DNA of 64,000 nucleotides from Bacteroidota bacterium. GTDB taxonomy: Bacteria > Bacteroidota > Ignavibacteria > Kryptoniales > JAKASW01. The stretch is taken from NCBI GenBank assembly GCA_023480735.1, contig JAMCXB010000043.1:12750-76749 (forward strand), written 5' to 3'. The position numbers and the translations under genes were made by a program. How positions within the stretch are numbered: position 1 is the stretch's first letter; each line of letters begins with the position of its first letter. A model generated the notes under the pieces. The model searched no databases and was not told where the DNA came from. It worked only from the letters and a program-made list of their open reading frames with translations. Positions 1 through 21,967 of the stretch are shown here, piece after piece.

Positions 1-191
1 ACTACATGAAGATGGACGTCATGAAGAATCAGAAACTAGCCGTTGCGAATGGTTTGGTTCTCCTTTCGATTAAGGATGGCAGTGCAGAGAAACTCTGCAT
101 GACATGTCATAACAAGAAGAGCCCGACCTTCAAGGGTTTCGACTTCAAGACTATGTGGTCCCAGATAGCTCATCCAGTTCCGGCAAATTAA
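1..191 (+). CDS. C-terminal end of a c-type cytochrome (5' partial, runs off the left edge)
   Basis: Reading frame is open back to position 3. One CxxCH haem motif (CMTCH), ends ...IAHPVPAN*. Lies directly upstream of the barrel and multihaem genes on the same strand. Confidence 0.6.
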   Translation, partial: YMKMDVMKNQKLAVANGLVLLSIKDGSAEKLCMTCHNKKSPTFKGFDFKTMWSQIAHPVPAN

Positions 192-228
192 TTATGTCCT
201 CTTTCATCTCCATAAAGGAAGGTGGGTT

Positions 229-1704
229 GTGAAAGTCGCTGTGCAAAAACGATCGGAAATTTGTGGAGAAAACCGGCATCGTGAAGACGATGCCGGCTCT
301 TTTCTCCTGAATGAACTGACGATTAATTACTCGGCAAGGCTGAGAACCGATTCCTGGAGACGTGCACCGAAGCGTACGGTGCGCGGTTTCATAATCTTCG
401 GGCTGCTTTCATTTCTCTTCCTTTTCCTCATGAACCCATTGGGAACCGGACGAGCTTATGGCCAAGCGGTAAGCGGTCGGTTCGTTACTTCGTTCTATTC
501 TTACCAGCAATATGATACGACCGATGCTGCCAGACTCGATTTGCGAGGGTTCGAGGCTATGCAGTTGAATTTCGGAGCAGGGAATTACCAGCTGCATACG
601 TATATACTTGCTACTAACGACTTCGTCACACCACTGCCCAATGATCCTTTGCTTAGGGCCGGCAATTTGTATTTAGAGGCGAGGAACATTGCTAATGTGG
701 TGGACCTGAAACTCGGAAGGCAGCCGATTTTCAGCAAGGTGGGCGTTTCTTCCTTCGACGGCTTGAGCGCGGATGCCAAGTTCCTCAACAATCAGGTCTG
801 CGTCGTAGCATTCGGCGGGGCGCTTCCGCCGGTCGACGAAAGATTTGAACTGAACTCCGACCTGAAGAACAATACCCTTTACGGTGGACAGGTATACTAT
901 TCTCCCATTGAGAATTTCAGAGTGGGCGGCGCCTACGTAGACAAGAACTTCAAGCCGCCAAGCTATTATGCTTATCGCCTGACAGACCTCCACAACACTC
1001 CAAGCTTCGGCGACAGTGTTTATATTGACCCGTCGGCTACGGCCTACCAGTTTGTCTCCGGCGATATCCTCTACTACAATAATAATGTCACCGGGTATGT
1101 TCGAATCGACTATGACCTTAACTTCGCGGATTTCAATCGTACCGAGTTTTCGTTTAGATATTCTCCAATAACTTCTCTTTCCGCTAATGTGGAATATTTT
1201 CATCGTGACGCGCGACTTCCGTTCAATTCGATCTTCTCTGTGTTCGACCATGCGGGTACAGACGAGTACGATCTGGGGCTGAACTACAGGCTTACGAATA
1301 ATGTCAGTGCGTTTACGTCCGTCAGCAAGGTTTACTACACGGGAGACAATTCGACTCAGTATTCGATCGGTACAAATATTTATCTGTTCTCGGTGAACTT
1401 CTCCCACAATGACGGATTTGCAGGAAACCTCAACGGGCTGAACGCCCAATTTATGTACCCAATGTTCGAACGCAGGCTTGTTCTGATCGCTTCCGCATCG
1501 GCGATGGACTACAAGATACTCCAGGAGAGTTCTCTCCCGACGAATCGTCTGTACCCGCATGGTCGAACACAGACATATCGGCCGATCGATCTGCTCTCGT
1601 TCAACTTGCAGGGGCAGTACTATCAGAACCCCGTGTATAAGAACGACGTCAGGGGATACCTGCAGGTGAACTACTATTTCTTCAAAAGTTTTGATTCCAA
1701 TTGA
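229..1704 (+). CDS. putative outer-membrane beta-barrel (porin-like) protein
   Basis: GTG start 4 nt after AAGGAAGGTGGG. Signal-peptide-like segment RGFIIFGLLSFLFLFLMNPLGTGRAYG/Q (alternative GTG start at 379). The remainder is Y/N/S/G/T-rich with alternating-polarity strand-like stretches and ends ...GYLQVNYYFFKSFDSN. Stop overlaps the next start (ATGA at 1701-1704). No family recognised by eye. Confidence 0.5.
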   Translation: MKVAVQKRSEICGENRHREDDAGSFLLNELTINYSARLRTDSWRRAPKRTVRGFIIFGLLSFLFLFLMNPLGTGRAYGQAVSGRFVTSFYSYQQYDTTDAARLDLRGFEAMQLNFGAGNYQLHTYILATNDFVTPLPNDPLLRAGNLYLEARNIANVVDLKLGRQPIFSKVGVSSFDGLSADAKFLNNQVCVVAFGGALPPVDERFELNSDLKNNTLYGGQVYYSPIENFRVGGAYVDKNFKPPSYYAYRLTDLHNTPSFGDSVYIDPSATAYQFVSGDILYYNNNVTGYVRIDYDLNFADFNRTEFSFRYSPITSLSANVEYFHRDARLPFNSIFSVFDHAGTDEYDLGLNYRLTNNVSAFTSVSKVYYTGDNSTQYSIGTNIYLFSVNFSHNDGFAGNLNGLNAQFMYPMFERRLVLIASASAMDYKILQESSLPTNRLYPHGRTQTYRPIDLLSFNLQGQYYQNPVYKNDVRGYLQVNYYFFKSFDSN

Positions 1705-2978
1705 TGGAGGCGCAGATGAAAAGATCTATACTCTTTGGAATTGTCAGTATCGTCGCGCTCCTGTCAATCTCGAATCTTTATGCGACGAAGGATGCTCCTA
1801 AGGTTGACAATGCGAAACTGATAAAATTCTCTCATTCGTTGCATATTAACGATGTAGGCGCCGCTTGCACGGATTGTCATACGAATGTCACGAGTAGCAC
1901 GAAGGAGACCGATTATCTTATACCAAACATGTCGGTTTGTTACTCCTGTCATGACCAATCATCGACAAAGTGCGAGTTCTGTCATACTTCCTCGGACAGC
2001 AGCACTTATCGCGATCTCGTTCAGACGCCAAGCCCGGTATACTTCTCACACAAGCGGCATGCGGGCGTACTGAAATTGAAATGCGAGACTTGTCATCAGG
2101 GATTGGACAAGGTCAAGTATGCGGAGGAAGCGCCTAACGGCGGTCTTCCGAAAATGGAACAATGTACGGTTTGTCACGGCCAGTTAAGCAACAACTTCAA
2201 AACTAAGAATGTCAGTCATGCCATAACCCCGGCTCCGGGTGCATGCGGCGCATGTCATAAAGACTTGACGCAGCTCATTCCCGAGTCACACAAAATGCCT
2301 GACTTTATGACGCAGCATAAAGATTTCGTCAATGCTACCGGTCCGCAAAATGATTGCAGGTCGTGTCACTCTCCTACATCATGTCAGGAATGTCATGACG
2401 CAGGCAACTTTGCGAAGGACCTGACGCCGGGTCAACTGTATGTGCCTTCGACTCCGTCACTTTCGCCATTGACTGCCCATAAGGAACTTACGTTCCAGAA
2501 GGTGCATCCGTCTAATTTCAGATTCACACACGGAATAGAGGCAAAGGGACGCGAGAGCACTTGCTACACTTGTCATGACGAGAGGACATTTTGCGTGCCA
2601 TGCCACAACTCCGAAGCCAACGGCGCTCGCATCGAGCCGGTATGGCACTTCGGAGGGGACTTCGTGACGCTCGGGGTAGGCAGTGGCGGAGGAAGACATG
2701 CACAATACGCGAGAAAAGACATTGAAAGCTGTGCAAGCTGTCATGATGTCCAGGGCGCCGATCCGGTTTGCATAACCTGTCACACGGATCCGGATGGAAT
2801 AAAAGGGGATGACCCAAGAACCCATGCTCCATTCTTTATGCGTGACGTTAATGGAGACTGGCACACAAATCCGGGATCGGTCTGCTATGTATGTCATACC
2901 GATCCTAATGCGCATCCGGGCGGAAAGCCGGGTGTCGGCTTTTGTGGTTATTGTCACGGCAGCAATCCGGGAGACTGA
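1701..2978 (+). CDS. secreted multihaem c-type cytochrome with 14 CxxCH motifs
   Basis: N-terminal signal peptide (ILFGIVSIVALLSISNLYA). I count 14 CxxCH sites. Several sit in c3/c7-like modules (FSHSLH...CTDCH, FSHKRH...CETCH). Confidence 0.9.
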   Translation: MMEAQMKRSILFGIVSIVALLSISNLYATKDAPKVDNAKLIKFSHSLHINDVGAACTDCHTNVTSSTKETDYLIPNMSVCYSCHDQSSTKCEFCHTSSDSSTYRDLVQTPSPVYFSHKRHAGVLKLKCETCHQGLDKVKYAEEAPNGGLPKMEQCTVCHGQLSNNFKTKNVSHAITPAPGACGACHKDLTQLIPESHKMPDFMTQHKDFVNATGPQNDCRSCHSPTSCQECHDAGNFAKDLTPGQLYVPSTPSLSPLTAHKELTFQKVHPSNFRFTHGIEAKGRESTCYTCHDERTFCVPCHNSEANGARIEPVWHFGGDFVTLGVGSGGGRHAQYARKDIESCASCHDVQGADPVCITCHTDPDGIKGDDPRTHAPFFMRDVNGDWHTNPGSVCYVCHTDPNAHPGGKPGVGFCGYCHGSNPGD

Positions 2979-2981
2979 GAA

Positions 2982-3846
2982 ATGAAAAGATACATTGAAA
3001 TGATACTAGCTATTGCTGTGGGCTTCACCTTTAGTTCATGCAGTAAGCTGCAAAACAATGTCCTCGCCCCTGCCTCGGTACAGGATGTAGTTCATCCGGC
3101 AGGGTGGACGGACCTCAATTCGGCGGAATTTCACGGGACGTACATCAAGGAACATAATTACGATCTGGGCACGTGTGCGTCATGTCACGGTGCGGATTTT
3201 CGAGGTGGGATTTCCGGCAAATCGTGTTACACCTGCCATGAGGAAACTAATGGTCCGTTGGCATGCAACACTTGTCATGGCAGTCTGACCAACTCCGCTC
3301 CACCCCCTGATCTGTCGGGTAACACAAGTACATCTGATGCCGGAGTCGGCGCTCACCAGAGCCATCTTGAGGGGAACAGTTATCTATCCTCGGTGGCCTG
3401 TTCTTCATGCCATGGTCGTGCCGCAGGCGGCCGGTCCCGGTATTCACCCGGCTGGTTCTCAACCTGCCGTGGTGGCTTTTTCAGGAATTGCCACGACTCA
3501 GACTAACACGCCGGGGTCTCGTTTCTATGACAGTAGTCAGCCGACGATCACGCCACAGCCGATGTTCAATCAGCAGACGCTGCAATGTTCGAACACCTAT
3601 TGCCACGGTGATTTCAAGAACGGAAACAATTACTCGCCGACCTGGAACAAGGTTGCTTCGGGGCAGGCCGCATGCGGTACCTGTCACGGTATTCCACCCA
3701 ATACGCCGATTCATAAGGGACAGACTTTGCTGACCTGCTACCTCTGTCATGAACCCATGATGGGTCCGAACGGGGTTATACAGGACAGCTCGCTCCATGT
3801 GAATGGCAAGCTTGAACTGTACGGCAAGTCGGTCTCAGTGTGGTGA
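2982..3846 (+). pseudogene. multihaem cytochrome c lipoprotein, split by a +1 frame break near 3414
   Basis: Lipoprotein signal MKRYIEMILAIAVGFTFSSC. Frame 3 (2982-3413) carries CASCH, CYTCH, CNTCH, CSSCH. Frame 1 (3415-3846) carries CSNTYCH (CxxxxCH), CGTCH, CYLCH. The two ORFs (2982-3506 and 3337-3846) overlap, and one extra G at 3414/3415 separates the coherent parts. Confidence 0.75.
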
Positions 3847-3911
3847 CCGCCGGGACCTGTTGGGTGCAGAAGAAAAACATATTCGAGAGATAGATATTCG
3901 CCGGTAAGATG

Positions 3912-3950
3912 GAAAGCCAAGGGTATACGAGATGTCCTTGGCTTTCTTCT
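3912..3950 (+). terminator. rho-independent terminator candidate after the cytochrome module
   Basis: Perfect 11-bp stem gaaagccaagg (3912-3922) / ccttggctttc (3936-3946) followed by the T-rich ttct. Confidence 0.6.
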
Positions 3951-5714: not shown

Positions 5715-6473
5715 GTGCGGGAAACACAAGTCAGCATGAAGTCTGAGCAGGACGAGAGAGTCTACGGATCCGGGAATGAGAACCTGCCGTCAAATACCGT
5801 CACAAAGGAAAGGCTGCGGGCTTATTACGACAGATTCTTTGAGAGCTCAGAGTTCAGACACTACGATGAGGGCGCAACCCGGAAAATCCTGCGGTCGCTG
5901 GTAAGAAAGGCGGGGGTAGGGGAAGGAAAAACCGTTTTGGATCTCGGCTGCGCTACCGGGTTTTACACAGATCAGTTTCGTCATCTGGGGATGTCATCCG
6001 TAGGCATTGATATAAGTAGTGTAGGGGTATCTAAGGCGAGAGCGAAATATCCCGATCTTCCTTTTGTCGTCGGTGATGCGGCCAGACTGCCATTCAAACA
6101 ATCTTCCTTTGACATCCTTTTCATGTCGGGTTGCAGCTTGACCAACACTCGTGACTTTCCGGCCATTCAGTCCTTCTTCGGGAGTCTGACCGACTATATC
6201 CTGAAAGGTGGGGCTCTGGTCGTTCTGAGTGCGAGCGATTTTTCCGGGGAAGAGGCTCCGATCAATGAATGGATCTATCATACCTATGATGAAATTCAGC
6301 GTTATGTAGACCGGGACAGCGTGCAGGTGCGTGGACCGTATGTCACAAACCTCAGGCTTCTCTCCAAGGTGGGTAGGATTGCTTTGAACAGGTTTACTTC
6401 TCTGGTACTCAGGAAAATACCCGGTAGAAGGAGATGGAGCGTCGTCTATTTTATTGGAAAAAAGGGGAGTTAG
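5715..6473 (+). CDS. class I SAM-dependent methyltransferase
   Basis: SAM-binding motif I VLDLGCATGFYT. 252 aa. Start uncertain (GTG 5715 or ATG 5736). Confidence 0.75.
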   Translation: MRETQVSMKSEQDERVYGSGNENLPSNTVTKERLRAYYDRFFESSEFRHYDEGATRKILRSLVRKAGVGEGKTVLDLGCATGFYTDQFRHLGMSSVGIDISSVGVSKARAKYPDLPFVVGDAARLPFKQSSFDILFMSGCSLTNTRDFPAIQSFFGSLTDYILKGGALVVLSASDFSGEEAPINEWIYHTYDEIQRYVDRDSVQVRGPYVTNLRLLSKVGRIALNRFTSLVLRKIPGRRRWSVVYFIGKKGS

Positions 6474-7207
6474 CTCGCAAATAGTTTGCCCACTATGAAA
6501 GTAGCTGCGGCTGCCAGTCCACCAATCGTGACGCTTTCCAAGCCGCTCCTCCAAGGGCTCTTTCCCGTAACCGCGGTTTTTGCCGCACCAACGCCGAAGA
6601 GAGAAGATAGTGTCAGGATCGCGCTGGCAATTAATCCGTTGTCAGGACGCATGAAAAAATACGGGATAATCGGCATGAGAGCACCGAAAGCATAAGCGCC
6701 TCCCGTAGCGATTGCCGATTTCAAAGGGGACACTGTCGAGTCTAATGAGAGGCCGAGCTCTTCCTGCATCATGATGTCAACCCAGCGTTCTTTGTCTGAA
6801 GTGATATGTGAGATGACCTTTTCCAGGATTTCCCCTGTGAAGCCTTTGGAACGGTAGATGTTACGAATCTCCTGGCGTTCGACTTCAGGGAAGTTATCGA
6901 CTTCAAAGCTCTCACGGTTCATCTCGCCGCGATAGTACTCGATCTGTGATTTTGTCGAGAGGTAAGCTCCGAGGGCCATTGATATTGTCCCACCAATGAG
7001 TTCCGCCAGTCCGGCTATCAGGATTACTTCGCTCTTGACGCCGGCACCGTTGACTCCCGAGGCAACAGCAAAGGCGGCAATCAGGCCGTCGTTTGCCCCG
7101 AAGACCAACTCACGGACTATGCTTCCACCGGGAATATGTAATGCCTCAGTATGGTGGCGTGAGTCCTTCGTATTCATAGCCTTGCCGCGCCAGGACCACT
7201 TTGCCAT
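6470..7207 (-). CDS. VIT1/CCC1-family iron/manganese transporter
   Basis: LVFGANDGLIAAFAVASGV motif, a central soluble stretch and C-terminal TM helices. Converges on the methyltransferase gene and overlaps it by 4 nt. Confidence 0.8.
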   Translation of the reverse strand: MAKWSWRGKAMNTKDSRHHTEALHIPGGSIVRELVFGANDGLIAAFAVASGVNGAGVKSEVILIAGLAELIGGTISMALGAYLSTKSQIEYYRGEMNRESFEVDNFPEVERQEIRNIYRSKGFTGEILEKVISHITSDKERWVDIMMQEELGLSLDSTVSPLKSAIATGGAYAFGALMPIIPYFFMRPDNGLIASAILTLSSLFGVGAAKTAVTGKSPWRSGLESVTIGGLAAAATFIVGKLFAS

Positions 7208-11398: not shown

Positions 11399-12892
11399 TC
11401 AGGAGAGTGCGTCAGCAGTCCGCGGCTCAGCCAGGCCACCTACGGAAAGAGCCGGAAGGGTGATGGTCACCGTTGTCCCGCTTCCCATCTGGCTGTCTAT
11501 CGCAATCGCGCCATGATGTGATTCGATGAGAGATCGGGCGATTGAAAGACCCAACCCGCTTCCGCGTTGTGCGGCGCCGGATGAACGTGACTTGTCGGCG
11601 CGATAAAATCTGTCGAACACGTGCGGGAGGTCCCGCGGAGGGATGCCGACGCCCTTGTCGACGATCAGCAGTCTTACAAGATCCTTCTCAGCTATCTGGA
11701 CTACTCTTATTGTTTCTCCGTCGTATGAATACTTTATGGCGTTGTCCAGAAGATTGATGAACGCGCTGAGGAGTTTGTCCCTATCGGCGGCGACAAATAC
11801 TTCCTCGTGTTCCCGGCCGGGAGTGTTCTGAACCTCGTAGTTTATCTGGATTGAACGCTGCGAAGCATACGCGGAAGTTTTGGAAATTGCGTCGAGTAGC
11901 AGTTCGTCGATTCTAATTGAGCGCATCTGAAGCTGAAGCTGCCCGCTTTCAAGTCGTGCCATGGTCAGCAGCTCGTCGACTATGTTCGTGATTCTCTTAA
12001 TCTCTTCGACAGAACTGTTCAGGATACTCACGTAATCTTCCGGTGTGCGAGGATTCTTAAGTGCAACCTCGATCTCGCCAAGCAGGATTGTTAACGGGGT
12101 CTTCAATTCGTGAGATGCGTCTGCGGTAAATTGCCTTTGAAGCGTGAAGGCGTCTTCGATTCTGTCAAACATGGCATTGAGAGTCTTGGAGAGACGCGAT
12201 ATTTCATCGTCGACTCTCTTCGTCTCCAGCCGCCTGTCGAGATGTTCAGCGGAGATGGACTGTGCCGTACGAATTATCCGGTCAATCGGGTCGAATGCCT
12301 TCTTCGCTAAATAGAATCCCCCCAGAGCCGCCGCCAGGATGGTCAACGGAACCGCGATGAGGAGCAAAATGCGGAGGCCGAGGAGGCTTTGATCCAGGAT
12401 CAAAGTGTTCGAAGCTACCTGGACAAGATATGTTGGGATGCCATTGTCGAACACGGGGTACGTAACGATTCGTAGGTGACCCTTTCTTATGAGGTGTGAA
12501 GATGTTCCTTTGTCAAGCGTCTGGAAGACTTGATGACGGCTGAGCGCGAGTGCAAGGACCTCAGGGGTAACCGGCAAATTGAGACTCTTTAGGCTTGTAG
12601 ATTTGATTACTATTGTGCCGTCGATTGACAGAACTTGCACGTACTCGTTCGTGCCAAAGTTCGCCGTAATGGGCTGCTGGATCAGTCCTGACTGAATTTC
12701 CAACTCAAGGCGCTCATCTCCCTTGATCTGTCCGGCAATTTCAAGGGCATCGTTGCTCAAGTTGAGATCGAAATTCTGTGCGCTTTGGCGAGCATACAGG
12801 AAATAGAGCGACCCGGCAAAAATAGAAAGTGTGAACCCGAAGATTACGACAAAGAGCAGTGTTATTTTTGCTCTAATCGTCCTCATTTTCAT
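11399..12892 (-). CDS. sensor histidine kinase (two TM segments, periplasmic domain, HAMP, HisKA, HATPase_c)
   Basis: H-box ADASHELKTPLT, N-box LLDNAIKYS, G-boxes DKGVGIP and GSGLGLSIA. Two hydrophobic segments flank a region of about 150 aa. Confidence 0.85.
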   Translation of the reverse strand: MKMRTIRAKITLLFVVIFGFTLSIFAGSLYFLYARQSAQNFDLNLSNDALEIAGQIKGDERLELEIQSGLIQQPITANFGTNEYVQVLSIDGTIVIKSTSLKSLNLPVTPEVLALALSRHQVFQTLDKGTSSHLIRKGHLRIVTYPVFDNGIPTYLVQVASNTLILDQSLLGLRILLLIAVPLTILAAALGGFYLAKKAFDPIDRIIRTAQSISAEHLDRRLETKRVDDEISRLSKTLNAMFDRIEDAFTLQRQFTADASHELKTPLTILLGEIEVALKNPRTPEDYVSILNSSVEEIKRITNIVDELLTMARLESGQLQLQMRSIRIDELLLDAISKTSAYASQRSIQINYEVQNTPGREHEEVFVAADRDKLLSAFINLLDNAIKYSYDGETIRVVQIAEKDLVRLLIVDKGVGIPPRDLPHVFDRFYRADKSRSSGAAQRGSGLGLSIARSLIESHHGAIAIDSQMGSGTTVTITLPALSVGGLAEPRTADALS

Positions 12893-13556
12893 CCCTTAAT
12901 ACGTAACCAGCCCCGACTATAGTGTGGATTAGCGGTTTGTCGAAATCCCTGTCAATTTTCTGTCGAAGCAGCTTAACGTAAACGTCGATTACGTTGGATT
13001 CCATGTCGAAGCTGACATTCCAGACGTGCTGAGCAATATAAGACCGCGACAGGATTTGCCCCTTGTTGCGCATAAGATATTCGAGAAGGGCAAACTCTCT
13101 CGTTGTTAAACGGATCGGGGTGCCATCGCGTTCGACTTTCCTTGAGACGGGGTCGAGTATCAGTCCTCCTACCTGAAGGACTGCAGATTTGTCTTGGCTT
13201 TTTCGTCGAAGCAGAGCCCTGATCCGGGCGAGGAGTTCTTCAAAATGAAAAGGCTTTGTCAGATAGTCGTCTGCGCCCGAATCGAGGCCCCGTACCTTAG
13301 CGTCGGTGTCTCCAAGGGCGGTTAACATCAAGACAGGTGTATCCACTTTCTTGCTGCGAATGTTTCGGCAGGTGGTTACCCCGTCCTGTGAAGGGAGGAG
13401 TACGTCGAGTATTATGGCATCGTAAGCGTTTTCGCAAGCCTGTTGTTCACCCTGCAGTCCGTCATATGCCACATCCACGGTATAGGATTGTTCCTCCAGG
13501 CCTTTACGGATGAAGGACGCTACTTTCTTTTCATCCTCGACGACAAGTATGCGCAT
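12873..13556 (-). CDS. OmpR/PhoB-family response regulator
   Basis: Receiver domain (MRILVVEDE, ILDVLLP, LTKPF) plus a winged-helix C-terminus (LTTREFALLEYLMRN...). Overlaps the kinase start by 20 nt. Confidence 0.9.
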   Translation of the reverse strand: MRILVVEDEKKVASFIRKGLEEQSYTVDVAYDGLQGEQQACENAYDAIILDVLLPSQDGVTTCRNIRSKKVDTPVLMLTALGDTDAKVRGLDSGADDYLTKPFHFEELLARIRALLRRKSQDKSAVLQVGGLILDPVSRKVERDGTPIRLTTREFALLEYLMRNKGQILSRSYIAQHVWNVSFDMESNVIDVYVKLLRQKIDRDFDKPLIHTIVGAGYVLRDENEDD

Positions 13557-20779: not shown

Positions 20780-20995
20780 GTCTATTTCCTGACTCAATAA
20801 TAAACGCAGAGTGTCTGCAAAACAAGCGCACAAGGCAGTGGCATACTGGCAGTGTTAACTGGGAAGTATTTCTTATTCTCCGAATTGCGAATTTTGGTCT
20901 TTGCGAAATTCCTGTATATATTTTCCTGCAATCAGGGCTTGCGAGACTTCCATTATACATCTAACTCTCTAAAAGTATTCAAAAGGAGGGCGAAT

Positions 20996-21694
20996 ATGGG
21001 TGCGGTAAGTGCGGCAATTCCCGTCGAAACAACTGGTTGGAAGACCCTTTTCAGAATCGCTGGTTCCGTTGCGTTGATTATGGTTGCATTCATCCCAATC
21101 CAAATCGCAGTTTTTGCGATTTGGCCCCCGCCGAGTACGGCCGCTGGATGGTTCGAACTCTTTCAAAGCAACAATCTTGTCGGTCTCATCGATATGGACT
21201 TATTGCTGATGGTCGACCAGATCTTCGTTGGAATAATGCTAATTGCCCTATACGTTGTACTCCGGACGACCAATCTATCACTGATGACGGTTGGATTGGC
21301 TCTTGGCTTGACAGGGATGGTAATTTACTTCAGTTCGACAGTCGCCTTCGAGATGATGTCCCTGAGTCACCAGTATGCGACCGCCGCAACCGCATCGGAG
21401 AGGACGATATTGCTGGCCGCAGGGCAGACGATGCTGGTTACCTGGCAGGGGACTGCTTTCAATATTGGTTACGTTGCAGAAGGTGTCGCTTTCCTGATAA
21501 TCGCTTCCGTCATGCTGGGGAGTACGATCTTCGGCAAGACGACCGCGTGGATTGGAATTGTTCTCGGCGTTATGTCTCTGGTACCTCCGACGGTAGCTGT
21601 TGTCGGGATGTATTTTGCACTCGGCTCTCTCGTGCCGCTGGTGGTCTGGGACATTCTTGTCGCCAGGAGGTTGTTCCAACTGGCAAATATGTAA
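20996..21694 (+). CDS. polytopic membrane protein (DUF4386-like by recollection)
   Basis: ATG 20996 behind AAAAGGAGGG. 232 aa with about 6 hydrophobic helices. The ORF-track start at 20852 adds a non-coding-looking leader. Confidence 0.5.
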   Translation: MGAVSAAIPVETTGWKTLFRIAGSVALIMVAFIPIQIAVFAIWPPPSTAAGWFELFQSNNLVGLIDMDLLLMVDQIFVGIMLIALYVVLRTTNLSLMTVGLALGLTGMVIYFSSTVAFEMMSLSHQYATAATASERTILLAAGQTMLVTWQGTAFNIGYVAEGVAFLIIASVMLGSTIFGKTTAWIGIVLGVMSLVPPTVAVVGMYFALGSLVPLVVWDILVARRLFQLANM

Positions 21695-21967
21695 ATTGCC
21701 AGTATGGGGTAAGGAGTATAATGAAGGAACTGGCTGTTAAAGCGGCAGTGAGATACTTCTTGTCCGGGCTGGTACGCTGTCGTATTGAAATGCCTGGTTG
21801 TATTGTTTTTTGTCGCATTCGTGTTAGGATCATTTTATGAGTTAATACCGATGCTATTCTTGCACTTCCAATGGCATGCATGGGTCTGCCTGGAAGGAGT
21901 GGAAATTTTCCCGCATTGCATATGAGGACTCAACGTCCTAATTTAACACGGTTTTAAGGAGGTCTTA

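What the first reader, a model, noticed from the sequence alone, without database searches (positions are those of the whole stretch)
1..3950. Porin-cytochrome-like module: barrel candidate + 14-haem secreted cytochrome + multihaem lipoprotein cytochrome
Seen: four same-strand genes are joined by 4-nt overlaps or 3-nt gaps, and one strong terminator hairpin follows them at 3912-3946. The genes are (i) a cytochrome c tail (CMTCH), (ii) an ORF of about 490 aa with a signal-peptide-like segment and strand-like Y/N/S/G-rich sequence, (iii) a secreted protein with 14 CxxCH, and (iv) a lipoprotein (lipobox FSSC) with 6 CxxCH plus 1 CxxxxCH. Established knowledge: outer-membrane electron conduits are built from exactly these three part types (Shewanella MtrCAB, Geobacter Pcc ombB-omaB-omcB). 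The order barrel, then periplasmic cytochrome, then lipoprotein cytochrome is the Geobacter omb-oma-omc order. Inference: this is an extracellular electron transfer conduit. I recognise no MtrB/OmbB-like sequence in the barrel, so it may be an undescribed barrel family or conduit type. The module is truncated by the left edge, so more components may lie upstream.
Basis: partly seen in the sequence, partly recalled or inferred. Interest (0 to 1): 0.7.

Follow-up and report, generated by a model that had tools for sequence, protein, structure and literature searches.

The report
Porin-cytochrome electron conduit, known family
This is the outer-membrane end of a multi-haem "electron cable" gene cluster, predicted to let Kryptoniota and Ignavibacteria pass respiratory electrons through the outer membrane to minerals; it is real, but the same cluster was described from genomes in 2014 and 2016, and here its outermost cytochrome gene is broken by a frameshift.

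Summary
The four same-strand genes exist. They are the tail of a small tetrahaem cytochrome, a barrel gene, a 14-CxxCH periplasmic cytochrome and a lipoprotein cytochrome, followed by a strong hairpin at 3911-3947.

AlphaFold2 models the barrel as a 22-stranded outer-membrane beta-barrel (pLDDT 84.9). In 76 of 76 related loci with enough sequence, a 13-14-haem gene lies directly downstream of it. The conduit reading is therefore well supported.

It is not an undescribed type. The barrel is a full-length homologue (34% identity, E 1e-76) of IALB_1839. Shi et al. (2014) listed that protein as the porin of the Ignavibacterium album Pcc cluster, next to a 400-aa 14-haem cytochrome and an outer cytochrome with an atypical motif. 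Eloe-Fadrosh et al. (2016) drew the Kryptonia version as a putative iron-respiration pathway.

Its "6 CxxCH + 1 CxxxxCH" exist only if two reading frames are joined.

In close relatives the missing upstream part encodes CbcL-like and NrfH-like quinol-dehydrogenase cytochromes.

One feature is unexplained: a hypervariable 0-60-codon stretch, always in frame, holds a conserved hairpin. It lies between a conserved start site and the barrel's signal peptide.

Verdict: real, a new member of a known but experimentally untested kind. Interest is modest.

The parts
3..191 (+). 3' end of a small periplasmic tetrahaem cytochrome c (c554-like). Only the last 62 codons and one CxxCH (CMTCH) lie in the window. 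It corresponds to IALB_1840 of I. album.
   Evidence: It aligns with the C-terminus of the 183-aa L001 protein, which has 4 CxxCH and a signal peptide. A ~190-aa 4-haem gene precedes the barrel in nearly all 80 related loci.
201..234 (+). Conserved translation-start block of the barrel gene: Shine-Dalgarno AAAGGAAGGTGGG (214-226) and GTG (229-231). It can fold into a weak hairpin that pairs the GTG with upstream TTTCAT.
   Evidence: The motif is found, in frame and open to the barrel ORF, in the window and 20 of 26 other Kryptoniota loci scanned (alignments). The fold is only -10.4 kcal/mol with z = -1.1, which is not significant on its own.
229..1704 (+). Outer-membrane beta-barrel (porin-like) component, a homologue of IALB_1839. 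From GTG 229 the precursor is 491 aa, and the signal-peptide h-region starts at about codon 52. An internal alternative start exists at GTG 379. The mature protein starts at about Q at 463.
   Evidence: AF2 model: pLDDT 84.9, pTM 0.73, 22 long strands, with long loops after odd strands and 2-4-residue turns after even strands. Foldseek finds only outer-membrane barrels. It is 34% identical to I. album WP_041294121.1 with E 1e-76. IALB_1839 sits in the same 90% cluster as hit P0086. No Pfam or NCBIfam family matches.
265..307 (+). Strong GC-rich hairpin flanked by an A-tract and a T-tract (terminator-like). It lies inside the variable N-terminal extension of the barrel ORF. Its role is unknown.
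   Evidence: One search lists the site at 273-296. One search gives -28.9 kcal/mol, z = -7.0, with 0 of 200 shuffles folding as well. It is conserved in L001, and in L007 two stem pairs change on both sides. There is only one copy in the 64-kb window.
1075..1098 (+). Codons for the family's most conserved motif, NSIFSVFD (residues 283-290 of the 441-aa form). It lies in a low-confidence loop between strands 13 and 14, which strand parity places on the extracellular side (loop L7).
   Evidence: N283, S284, I285, F286, V288 and F289 are invariant, and S287 and D290 at least 90% conserved, in 92 sequences. pLDDT is below 50 for residues 281-290.
1716..2978 (+). Periplasmic 14-haem c-type cytochrome (420 aa) with a Sec signal peptide. 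It corresponds to IALB_1838.
   Evidence: 14 CxxCH. All 14 motifs and 11 further His are invariant in 69 homologues. Pfam cytochrome c7 / c3 domains match. The N-terminal ~150 aa are modelled with pLDDT ~90 and resemble ActA of alternative complex III and a GSU1996 fragment. A 13-14-haem ORF follows the barrel in 76 of 76 loci.
2982..3506 (+). Outer cytochrome gene, first piece: lipoprotein signal (lipobox TFSSC), 4 CxxCH, then 30 out-of-frame codons and a stop. It corresponds to the N-terminal half of IALB_1837.
   Evidence: The frameshift is located at 3414 by alignment to L001.
3415..3846 (+). Outer cytochrome gene, second piece, in the +1 frame: a CxxxxCH/CxxCH domain (CSNTYCH, CGTCH) plus CYLCH. 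As the sequence stands it has no signal peptide of its own.
   Evidence: TIGR01904 at 49.7 bits (cut-off 27) and PF09698 at 29.3 bits (cut-off 21.7) match the frame-repaired protein. The intact 287-aa orthologue in L001 reads CSSCHVVPQAAGPGIHP across the site.
3911..3947 (+). Hairpin closing the gene set; probably an intrinsic terminator.
   Evidence: 16-bp stem, -26.5 kcal/mol, z = -4.4. The stem is conserved in L001. The simple terminator scan did not list it.

Best explanation
Window 1-3950 is the outer-membrane end of a respiratory extracellular-electron-transfer gene cluster of a Kryptoniota bacterium. It is orthologous to the porin-cytochrome (Pcc) cluster IALB_1840-1837 of Ignavibacterium album.

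Proposed working:
1. Quinol-dehydrogenase cytochromes in the inner membrane take electrons from the quinol pool. These genes lie upstream, outside the window. In close relatives they are a CbcL-like protein (18 haems fused to an FdnI-like cytochrome b), further cytochrome b subunits, and an NrfH-like protein with 18 haems.
2. The small tetrahaem cytochrome (gene i) and the 14-haem cytochrome (gene iii) carry the electrons through the periplasm.
3. The 14-haem protein sits partly inside the 22-strand barrel (gene ii), which insulates its haem chain across the outer membrane.
4. The lipoprotein cytochrome (gene iv) receives the electrons on the cell surface and passes them to insoluble Fe(III)/Mn(IV) oxides or similar acceptors.

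Shown here by computation: the gene set, the barrel fold, the haem motifs, the export signals, the strict gene linkage, and the homology to the published clusters.

Inferred by analogy with Geobacter Pcc and Shewanella MtrCAB: complex formation, threading, the direction of electron flow, and the substrate.

In this particular sequence gene iv is split by a +1 frameshift. The surface cytochrome may therefore be truncated to a 4-haem lipoprotein, unless the extra base is an assembly error.
For: Barrel:
- AF2 gives pLDDT 84.9 and 22 strands with the loop/turn alternation typical of outer-membrane proteins. Only outer-membrane barrels are found by Foldseek.

Linkage:
- In 80 loci from Kryptoniota and Ignavibacteria the order is 4-haem, barrel, 14-haem, 4-8-haem with an atypical motif.
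- 76 of 76 loci with enough sequence have the 13-14-haem gene.
- 70 of 70 loci with enough sequence have the third cytochrome.

Homology to the published Pcc cluster:
- IALB_1839 is in the cluster of hit P0086.
- The window barrel against the I. album RefSeq protein gives 34% identity over the full length, E 1e-76.
- Shi et al. describe IALB_1838 as 400 aa with 14 haem motifs, IALB_1837 with an atypical motif, and IALB_1840 as periplasmic.

Kryptonia: an iron-respiration cluster with pfam09698 and pfam14522 cytochromes was already proposed. Gene iv matches PF09698 and gene iii matches PF14522.

Upstream modules in relatives with conserved flanks.

Haem ligands: all 14 CxxCH plus 11 extra invariant His in gene iii fit bis-His electron-transfer haems.

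A VIT1-type iron transporter gene lies 2.6 kb downstream in conserved synteny.
Against: - No member of this barrel/14-haem subfamily has been tested experimentally. I found no paper on these genes beyond Shi 2014, and the Melioribacter omics papers do not address them.
- Pcc-type clusters also occur in bacteria not known to reduce iron, so the substrate is uncertain.
- The barrel has no detectable sequence relation to MtrB. I could not test its relation to Geobacter OmbB.
- The model of the 14-haem protein is poor beyond residue 150 (pLDDT 62 overall). No complex could be modelled, so threading is unverified.
- Gene iv is frameshifted in this window.
- A terminator-like hairpin at 265-307 lies between gene i and the body of the barrel gene. 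This questions simple co-transcription with the upstream genes.
Confidence: 0.75

Rival explanations
1. The same conduit runs inward. It takes electrons from extracellular Fe(II), a cathode or a partner cell and feeds them to the quinone pool or to an oxidase, as proposed for MtoAB and PioAB.
For: CbcL/MtoC-type and NapC/NirT-type inner-membrane cytochromes occur in both iron reducers and iron oxidisers, with no distinguishing feature (PMC6295460). The Kryptonia paper speaks of 'redox transformation of iron' and reports an aerobic respiratory chain. Nothing in the sequence fixes the direction.
Against: Shi et al. note that mtr-type clusters involved in Fe(II) oxidation often lack an outer-membrane cytochrome. 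This family almost always keeps a surface lipoprotein cytochrome. The cultured relative M. roseus is reported to reduce Fe(III). Eloe-Fadrosh et al. favour ferric iron respiration.
Confidence: 0.12
2. It is a trans-outer-membrane conduit, but its natural acceptor is not iron mineral. Candidates are elemental sulfur or polysulfide, humic substances, selenium or arsenic species, or a syntrophic partner.
For: Shi et al. found Pcc clusters in sulfur, selenate and nitrate reducers and in an anammox bacterium. I. album itself is described there only as a chemoheterotroph. The haem number of the outer cytochrome varies widely between loci, from 4 to 14, which suggests adaptation to different acceptors.
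Against: Ignavibacteria carrying this cluster are enriched on anodes and in Fe(III)-reducing hot-spring sediments. The neighbouring VIT1 gene is a weak hint of iron.
Confidence: 0.2
3. In this genome the module is decaying. The frameshift in gene iv is real, the surface cytochrome is lost or truncated, and the conduit is impaired or reduced to a two-component form (barrel plus 14-haem).
For: There is a +1 insertion at 3414, not in a long homopolymer. It is the only uncompensated frame-breaking indel in a conserved coding region across about 12 kb compared with L001, so the assembly is not generally error-ridden. Two-gene Pcc clusters without an outer cytochrome exist, and Shi et al. argue that 12-14 haems could span the membrane alone.
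Against: A single-base assembly or consensus error cannot be excluded without reads. The rest of gene iv shows no further damage, and its downstream frame is still open and conserved. This points to a very recent event or an error. Orthologues are intact in most loci.
Confidence: 0.4
4. The barrel is an ordinary diffusion porin or an LptD-like protein that merely sits next to periplasmic cytochromes of a soluble-substrate reductase (Nrf-, Hao- or Hmc-like).
For: Some database entries label homologues 'LPS assembly protein LptD' with weak PF04453 hits. The cytochromes give weak sub-threshold hits to HmcA, NrfB and QrcA models.
Against: The LptD similarity is insignificant (E = 1.7 with the family profile), and the barrel has 22 strands and about 410 mature residues. 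All reductase-family hits are far below their cut-offs (for example HmcA 32.7 against 400 bits). No catalytic NrfA or HAO gene is present in the relatives' clusters. The barrel is never found apart from the 14-haem gene.
Confidence: 0.03

Closest known systems
Ignavibacterium album JCM 16511 Pcc cluster IALB_1840-1839-1838-1837 (Shi, Fredrickson & Zachara 2014, PMC4245776)
   Same: The gene order and part list are the same: a small periplasmic cytochrome, a porin-like barrel, a ~400-aa 14-haem periplasmic cytochrome, and an outer cytochrome with an atypical CXnCH motif. The barrel is a full-length homologue (34% identity, E 1e-76). The 14-haem homologues in Ignavibacteria are 42-47% identical.
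   Different: The phylum differs (Kryptoniota). The Kryptoniota barrels carry a variable 0-60-residue N-terminal extension before the signal peptide. Gene iv is frameshifted here. Upstream inner-membrane modules differ between lineages.
'Ca. Kryptonia' proposed iron-respiration cluster (Eloe-Fadrosh et al. 2016, PMC4737851, Suppl. Fig. 8)
   Same: The phylum is the same. The Pfam signatures named in the legend match: pfam09698 for the outer cytochrome and pfam14522 for the multihaem cytochrome, plus several inner-membrane and periplasmic multihaem components.
   Different: I could read only the text and the legend, not the figure. I cannot say whether the barrel gene was identified there. The window comes from a different genome.
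Geobacter sulfurreducens Pcc complex OmbB-OmaB-OmcB (Liu et al. 2014, as summarised in PMC4245776)
   Same: The architecture and order are the same: barrel, periplasmic multihaem cytochrome, outer lipoprotein multihaem cytochrome. The barrel size falls in the 18-22-strand class. The CxxxxCH/CxxCH domain was first defined in Geobacter (TIGR01904).
   Different: Here the periplasmic cytochrome has 14 haems against 8, and the outer cytochrome 6+1 against 12. Shi et al. place the I. album barrel and cytochrome outside all five Pcc phylogenetic groups. Sequence homology to OmbB was not testable here.
Shewanella MtrCAB and the MtoAB/PioAB conduits
   Same: The functional logic is the same: a periplasmic multihaem cytochrome insulated by an outer-membrane barrel, with or without a surface cytochrome.
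   Different: The family differs. There is no match to the MtrB_PioB models or to any PDB sequence. Shi et al. predict 28 trans-membrane motifs for MtrB, against 22 strands here. The cytochromes are not DmsE/MtrA-family decahaems; their scores are far below the cut-offs.
CbcL / MtrH / MtoC inner-membrane quinol-oxidising cytochromes (PMC6295460)
   Same: In relatives, the 884-900-aa protein upstream has many N-terminal CxxCH motifs fused to a C-terminal FdnI/HydC-like cytochrome b domain. This is the CbcL architecture.
   Different: It has 18 haem motifs against 9 in Geobacter CbcL. It lies outside the window. Homology to CbcL itself was not tested.

Membership tests
Ignavibacteria/Kryptoniota Pcc cluster (IALB_1840-1837 type) | The barrel is homologous over its full length to IALB_1839. 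| tested here: met
   AFH49545.1 (IALB_1839) is a member of the 90% cluster of P0086, which hit the window barrel at E 2e-61. A direct BLASTP against the I. album RefSeq form gives 34% identity over 439 columns, E 1e-76.
Ignavibacteria/Kryptoniota Pcc cluster (IALB_1840-1837 type) | A ~400-aa periplasmic cytochrome with 14 CxxCH is encoded directly downstream of the barrel. | tested here: met
   Window 1716-2978: 420 aa, 14 CxxCH, signal peptide. This holds in 76 of 76 related loci. Shi et al. give 400 aa and 14 motifs for IALB_1838.
Ignavibacteria/Kryptoniota Pcc cluster (IALB_1840-1837 type) | A third gene encodes an outer-membrane lipoprotein cytochrome with an atypical CXnCH motif. | tested here: inconclusive
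   The lipobox, 6 CxxCH, 1 CxxxxCH and the TIGR01904 domain are all present, but they are split over two frames by a +1 insertion at 3414. Orthologues are intact in most loci.
Ignavibacteria/Kryptoniota Pcc cluster (IALB_1840-1837 type) | A small periplasmic cytochrome gene lies directly upstream of the barrel (IALB_1840 position). | tested here: met
   The window holds only its last 62 codons. The L001 orthologue is 183 aa with a signal peptide and 4 CxxCH. The gene is present in nearly all loci.
Geobacter Pcc (OmbB-OmaB-OmcB) in the strict sense | [quoted passage not shown] | tested here: met
   The AF2 model has 22 long strands; pLDDT 84.9. The range is taken from Shi et al..
Geobacter Pcc (OmbB-OmaB-OmcB) in the strict sense | Sequence homology of the barrel to OmbB/OmbC (GSU2733). 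| not testable with these tools
   No OmbB sequence, curated model or solved structure was reachable. Pfam and NCBIfam give no hit for the barrel. The literature is mixed: Shi et al. call IALB_1839 'distantly related' to all groups, while an OmbB-seeded HMM picked up Ignavibacteria porins in PMC7399161. Distant family members sampled here are Marinimicrobia, FCB-group and Bacteroidota proteins.
Geobacter Pcc (OmbB-OmaB-OmcB) in the strict sense | The three proteins form a complex that carries electrons across the membrane. | not testable with these tools
   This needs biochemistry or a multimer structure prediction. Only monomer prediction was available.
MtrCAB / MtoAB / PioAB | The barrel belongs to the MtrB/PioB family (PF11854, TIGR03509). 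| tested here: not met
   No hit at E <= 0.1 in Pfam or NCBIfam. The family profile finds no PDB sequence apart from LptD at E 1.7. MtrB is absent from the top 50 Foldseek matches.
MtrCAB / MtoAB / PioAB | The periplasmic cytochrome is a DmsE/MtrA-family decahaem (TIGR03508). | tested here: not met
   Gene iii has 14 haems and no TIGR03508 hit. Its best NCBIfam hits are far below their cut-offs (TIGR03507 at 37 against 209 bits). Its structural and sequence neighbours are ActA of ACIII and a GSU1996 fragment.
Periplasmic multihaem reductase operons (Nrf, Hao, Hmc) | Presence of the catalytic or signature subunit (NrfA, HAO, or a full HmcA with its partners). | tested here: not met
   HmcA scores 32.7 against a cut-off of 400 bits and NrfB 17 against 184. 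In relatives the upstream genes are cytochrome b, NrfH-like and multihaem proteins, with no NrfA or HAO family on record.

The most novel reading that the evidence does not exclude
The barrel family of the FCB group (Kryptoniota, Ignavibacteria, Marinimicrobia, Bacteroidota) may be an evolutionarily independent class of porin-cytochrome conduit. The profile search found 526 clusters at 50% identity. Under this reading the family is neither OmbB- nor MtrB-derived. It would be built for a 14-haem cytochrome made of c7-type repeats and held by an invariant extracellular-loop motif (NSIFSVFD). In Kryptoniota its synthesis would be controlled by an unusual element: a hypervariable, always-in-frame stretch of 0-60 codons containing a conserved terminator-like hairpin, placed between the start codon and the signal peptide. 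That arrangement would couple transcription read-through to translation of the barrel gene itself.
Probability: 0.2. Interest if true: 0.5.

Novelty: new member of a known kind. Interest (0 to 1): 0.3.

Why it matters
Porin-cytochrome conduits are how Gram-negative bacteria respire minerals and electrodes. Outside Geobacter and Shewanella they are known almost only from genome predictions.

This window adds one more Kryptoniota copy of a cluster that is widespread: 420 of about 186,000 species-representative genomes carry a relative. Genes of this cluster have not been studied experimentally in any paper I could find.

Its practical value is as a well-delimited target:
- a 22-strand barrel with a sharply conserved loop motif;
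- a strictly linked 14-haem partner;
- cultured relatives (I. album and M. roseus, the latter reported to reduce Fe(III)) in which the prediction can be tested.

It does not change what is known about extracellular electron transfer.

Tried and rejected
- Exact look-ups of the window's own 14-haem protein and of the identical barrel entry P0001 found no contig on record. The missing upstream part was therefore read from relatives whose barrels are 90% and 70% identical, which share the downstream synteny.
- The AF2 model of the 14-haem protein is poor (pLDDT 62). I draw no conclusion on its overall shape.
- Rfam found nothing in the window.
- I considered whether the overlapping ORFs at 20852-21840 signal a second frameshift. 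They do not: one is a membrane protein and the other is an alternative-frame artefact.
- I considered whether the 5' hairpin of the barrel gene belongs to a repeated mobile element. There is only one copy in the window. The rest of the genome could not be checked.
- The LptD annotation carried by some homologues was rejected (E 1.7 with the family profile).
- A programmed frameshift in gene iv was rejected. There is no slippery motif at 3411-3416, and orthologues are uninterrupted.
- I did not try to co-fold the barrel with the cytochrome. Only window sequences and database hits are accepted as input, and only as monomers.

Full report
**What is in the sequence**

Window 1-3950 carries four genes on the + strand.

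- Gene i is cut by the left edge. Its last 62 codons end at 191 and contain one CxxCH (CMTCH).
- Gene ii is an ORF from GTG 229 to 1704 (491 aa). It has a hydrophobic signal-peptide core (FIIFGLLSFLFLFL) and an AYG|Q site.
- Gene iii most likely runs 1716-2978. ATG 1716 is preceded by GGAGG. The gene has a Sec signal peptide and exactly 14 CxxCH.
- Gene iv starts 3 nt after gene iii, at 2982, with a lipoprotein signal (lipobox TFSSC).
- A 16-bp hairpin at 3911-3947 closes the set (-26.5 kcal/mol, z = -4.4).

Frame 3 carries four CxxCH and stops at 3506. The CxxxxCH and the last two CxxCH lie in frame 1, which runs to 3846. Alignment with L001, a relative whose barrel is 90% identical, shows a single extra base in the window at 3414 (TGCCATGGTCGT against TGCCAC-GTCGT). 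The intact L001 protein reads CSSCHVVPQAAGPGIHP across the site.

Across about 12 kb of window-to-L001 alignment, this is the only uncompensated frame-breaking indel inside a conserved coding region. It is either a real recent mutation or an isolated assembly error.

**Family scans**

- The barrel candidate matches no Pfam or NCBIfam family.
- Gene iii contains cytochrome c7/c3-type domains.
- The frame-repaired gene iv contains the CxxxxCH/CxxCH domain: TIGR01904 at 49.7 bits against a cut-off of 27, and PF09698.
- All hits to MtrC/OmcA, DmsE, HmcA, NrfB and QrcA models are far below their cut-offs.

**The barrel**

An AlphaFold2 model built on 92 homologues has mean pLDDT 84.9 and pTM 0.73. 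It shows 22 long strands. Loops after odd-numbered strands are long (up to 29 residues). Turns after even-numbered strands are 2-4 residues. This is the usual outer-membrane pattern, with both termini in the periplasm.

Foldseek against the PDB returns only outer-membrane barrels: PapC/FimD ushers, OccK/OpdK porins and AlgE, with TM-scores of 0.4-0.5. MtrB is not among the top 50. The family profile finds nothing in PDB sequences except LptD at E 1.7.

The most conserved motif of the family is NSIFSVFD (residues 283-290 of the 441-aa form; six of its eight residues are invariant). It lies in the one loop modelled with pLDDT below 50. Strand parity places that loop on the extracellular side as L7. 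This is what one would expect of a segment that folds only against a partner, but that reading is inference.

**Linkage**

The barrel has 178 database relatives at E <= 1e-3. A scan of one genome per species found 420 loci that encode a relative. The best 80 are Kryptoniota (60-90% identity) and Ignavibacteria/Melioribacteraceae (32-36%).

In these 80 loci the order is a ~190-aa 4-haem gene, the barrel, a 400-450-aa gene with 14 CxxCH, and then a gene with 4-8 or more CxxCH and at least one CX3-4CH motif.
- The 13-14-haem gene is present in 76 of 76 loci with enough sequence.
- The third cytochrome is present in 70 of 70 loci with enough sequence.

In gene iii all 14 CxxCH and 11 further histidines are invariant across 69 homologues. 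This fits bis-His electron-transfer haems.

**What lies to the left**

The window's own contig could not be retrieved. Two relatives share the downstream synteny (HAD hydrolase, uracil phosphoribosyltransferase, methyltransferase, VIT1, rplM, rpsI, rpsB, tsf, pyrH, frr). Upstream of the barrel they show:
- an 884-900-aa protein with 18 CxxCH fused to an FdnI/HydC-like cytochrome b (the CbcL architecture);
- in the closer relative, two more cytochrome b subunits, a 9-haem protein, and a 664-aa protein with an NrfH-like N-terminus and 18 haems;
- one or two small proteins, which in L001 match DksA/TraR-type zinc-finger models;
- then the 4-haem gene.

A sensor kinase (plus, in L004, a sigma-54 response regulator) is encoded divergently upstream. 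No NrfA or HAO catalytic subunit is present. The cluster therefore spans from quinol-oxidising modules in the inner membrane to the outer membrane.

**Comparison with what is known**

Shi, Fredrickson and Zachara (2014, PMC4245776) listed a Pcc cluster in Ignavibacterium album JCM 16511:
- IALB_1839, the porin-like protein;
- IALB_1838, the largest Pcc periplasmic cytochrome, at 400 aa with 14 haem motifs;
- IALB_1837, an outer-membrane cytochrome with an atypical motif;
- IALB_1840, an associated periplasmic cytochrome.

The link to the window is direct. AFH49545.1 (IALB_1839) is a member of the 90% cluster of P0086, one of the window barrel's hits. The window barrel aligns with the I. album RefSeq protein over its full length at 34% identity, E 1e-76.

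Later genome surveys repeat the assignment for Ignavibacteria and Melioribacter (PMC6137239, PMC7399161).

For the phylum of this window, Eloe-Fadrosh et al. [quoted passage not shown] The legend of their Supplementary Figure 8 names extracellular cytochromes with pfam09698 and pfam14522, which are the families of genes iv and iii.

I found no experimental work on these genes. No other paper cites the IALB locus tags. The Melioribacter omics papers do not address the cluster.

**Membership**

- The module meets the defining features of the IALB-type Pcc cluster, with the reservation that gene iv is frameshifted here.
- It does not belong to the Mtr/Mto/Pio family.
- Whether the barrel is homologous to Geobacter OmbB could not be tested with these tools. 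Shi et al. place IALB_1839 outside all five Pcc groups.
- A profile search of 1.84 billion representatives finds 526 clusters. The distant members I sampled are from Marinimicrobia, the FCB group and Bacteroidota.
- The N-terminal 150 residues of the 14-haem protein resemble ActA of alternative complex III and a GSU1996 fragment, not MtrA. The rest of that model is unreliable.

**Mechanism**

The best-supported reading has confidence of about 0.75. It is a trans-outer-membrane electron conduit in which the 14-haem cytochrome is sheathed by the 22-strand barrel and hands electrons to the surface lipoprotein cytochrome. Upstream quinol dehydrogenases feed it through the small tetrahaem protein.

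- Shown here: the parts, the barrel fold, the export signals, the strict linkage and the homology.
- Inferred by analogy: assembly, threading, direction of flow and substrate.
- Still open: reverse operation (electron uptake) and acceptors other than iron.
- If the frameshift is real, this genome may run a truncated or two-component version. Shi et al. consider that feasible for 12-14-haem cytochromes.

**An unexplained detail inside the finding**

In the window and in 20 of the 26 other Kryptoniota loci scanned, a conserved Shine-Dalgarno plus GTG block (AAAGGAAGGTGGrTTGTG; GTG at window 229) was found. Wherever it was found it is in frame and open to the barrel ORF. The distance from this GTG to the signal-peptide core varies from 3 to 62 codons. 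The intervening sequence is hypervariable and rich in Arg, Lys, His, Cys and Ser.

In the window, L001 and L007 this stretch holds a strong hairpin flanked by A- and T-tracts (window 265-307; -28.9 kcal/mol, z = -7.0). In L007 two stem pairs have changed on both sides.

In another subgroup the stretch has a constant length (the ORF is 492 aa) but an almost unrelated sequence. It is bracketed by a 15-bp long-range pairing, GGTATCCCGGAAAT...ATTTCCGGGAATAC.

An alternative internal start exists at window GTG 379, which is ATG in L001. I cannot decide between three readings:
- an unusually long translated n-region of the signal peptide;
- an attenuator read through by the translating ribosome;
- an in-frame palindromic insertion.

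**Verdict**

The conduit interpretation is well supported. The suggestion of an undescribed type is not. This is a new member of a known, computationally described and experimentally untested kind. Interest is modest (0.3).

Noticed in passing
window 229-385 (and L006-L030 at the matching place): Between a conserved SD+GTG start block and the barrel's signal-peptide core lies a hypervariable stretch of 3-62 codons, rich in R/K/H/C/S. It is in frame and open wherever the start block was found (the window plus 20 Kryptoniota loci). One subgroup keeps a constant ORF length (492 aa) although the sequence is almost unrelated, and brackets the stretch with a 15-bp long-range pairing.
   Followed up: partly
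window 265-307: A terminator-like hairpin (A-tract, 10-bp GC-rich stem, T-tract; -28.9 kcal/mol, z = -7.0) sits inside the 5' part of the barrel ORF. It is conserved in L001, and in L007 two stem pairs have changed on both sides. It may be an attenuator between the periplasmic and outer-membrane parts of the cluster.
   Followed up: partly
window 3414: A single-base insertion splits the lipoprotein cytochrome gene. The insertion creates an ATG (3412-3414) in the new frame, but the downstream piece would lack an export signal. Two other loci (L021, L028) also have this gene split in two.
   Followed up: yes
L001 1371-1679 and 8953-9375 (relative; outside the window): Two small DksA/TraR-type zinc-finger proteins (102 and 140 aa) are encoded inside the upstream cytochrome cluster. 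They may be dedicated regulators.
   Followed up: no
window 6470-7207 (- strand): A VIT1/CCC1-family iron/manganese transporter gene lies 2.6 kb downstream of the cluster. It is in the same position in relatives whose barrels are 90% and 70% identical. This is a weak contextual link to iron handling.
   Followed up: no
window 1554-1577: Against L001 the barrel gene shows a +4 and then a -4 indel 19 nt apart. This gives a short stretch read in another frame, in the region modelled as extracellular loop L10. It may be an alignment artefact of a fast-evolving loop.
   Followed up: no
L004 1667-4851 and L001 1-311 (relatives); window 11399-12895 (- strand): Sensor kinase genes flank the cluster. 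A HAMP-PAS-HisKA kinase lies divergently upstream in relatives, with a sigma-54 response regulator beside it in L004. The relatives also have a HAMP-HisKA kinase about 7.5 kb downstream, and a 498-codon open frame on the - strand occupies the matching place in the window. This suggests the cluster is under sigma-54 control.
   Followed up: no
L032, L050, L060, L072, L077 (related Ignavibacteria loci): The outer cytochrome gene varies widely in size between loci, from 4 to 14 CxxCH and 1 to 3 atypical motifs. Some loci add a further ~10-haem gene downstream. The barrel and the 14-haem gene stay constant.
   Followed up: no
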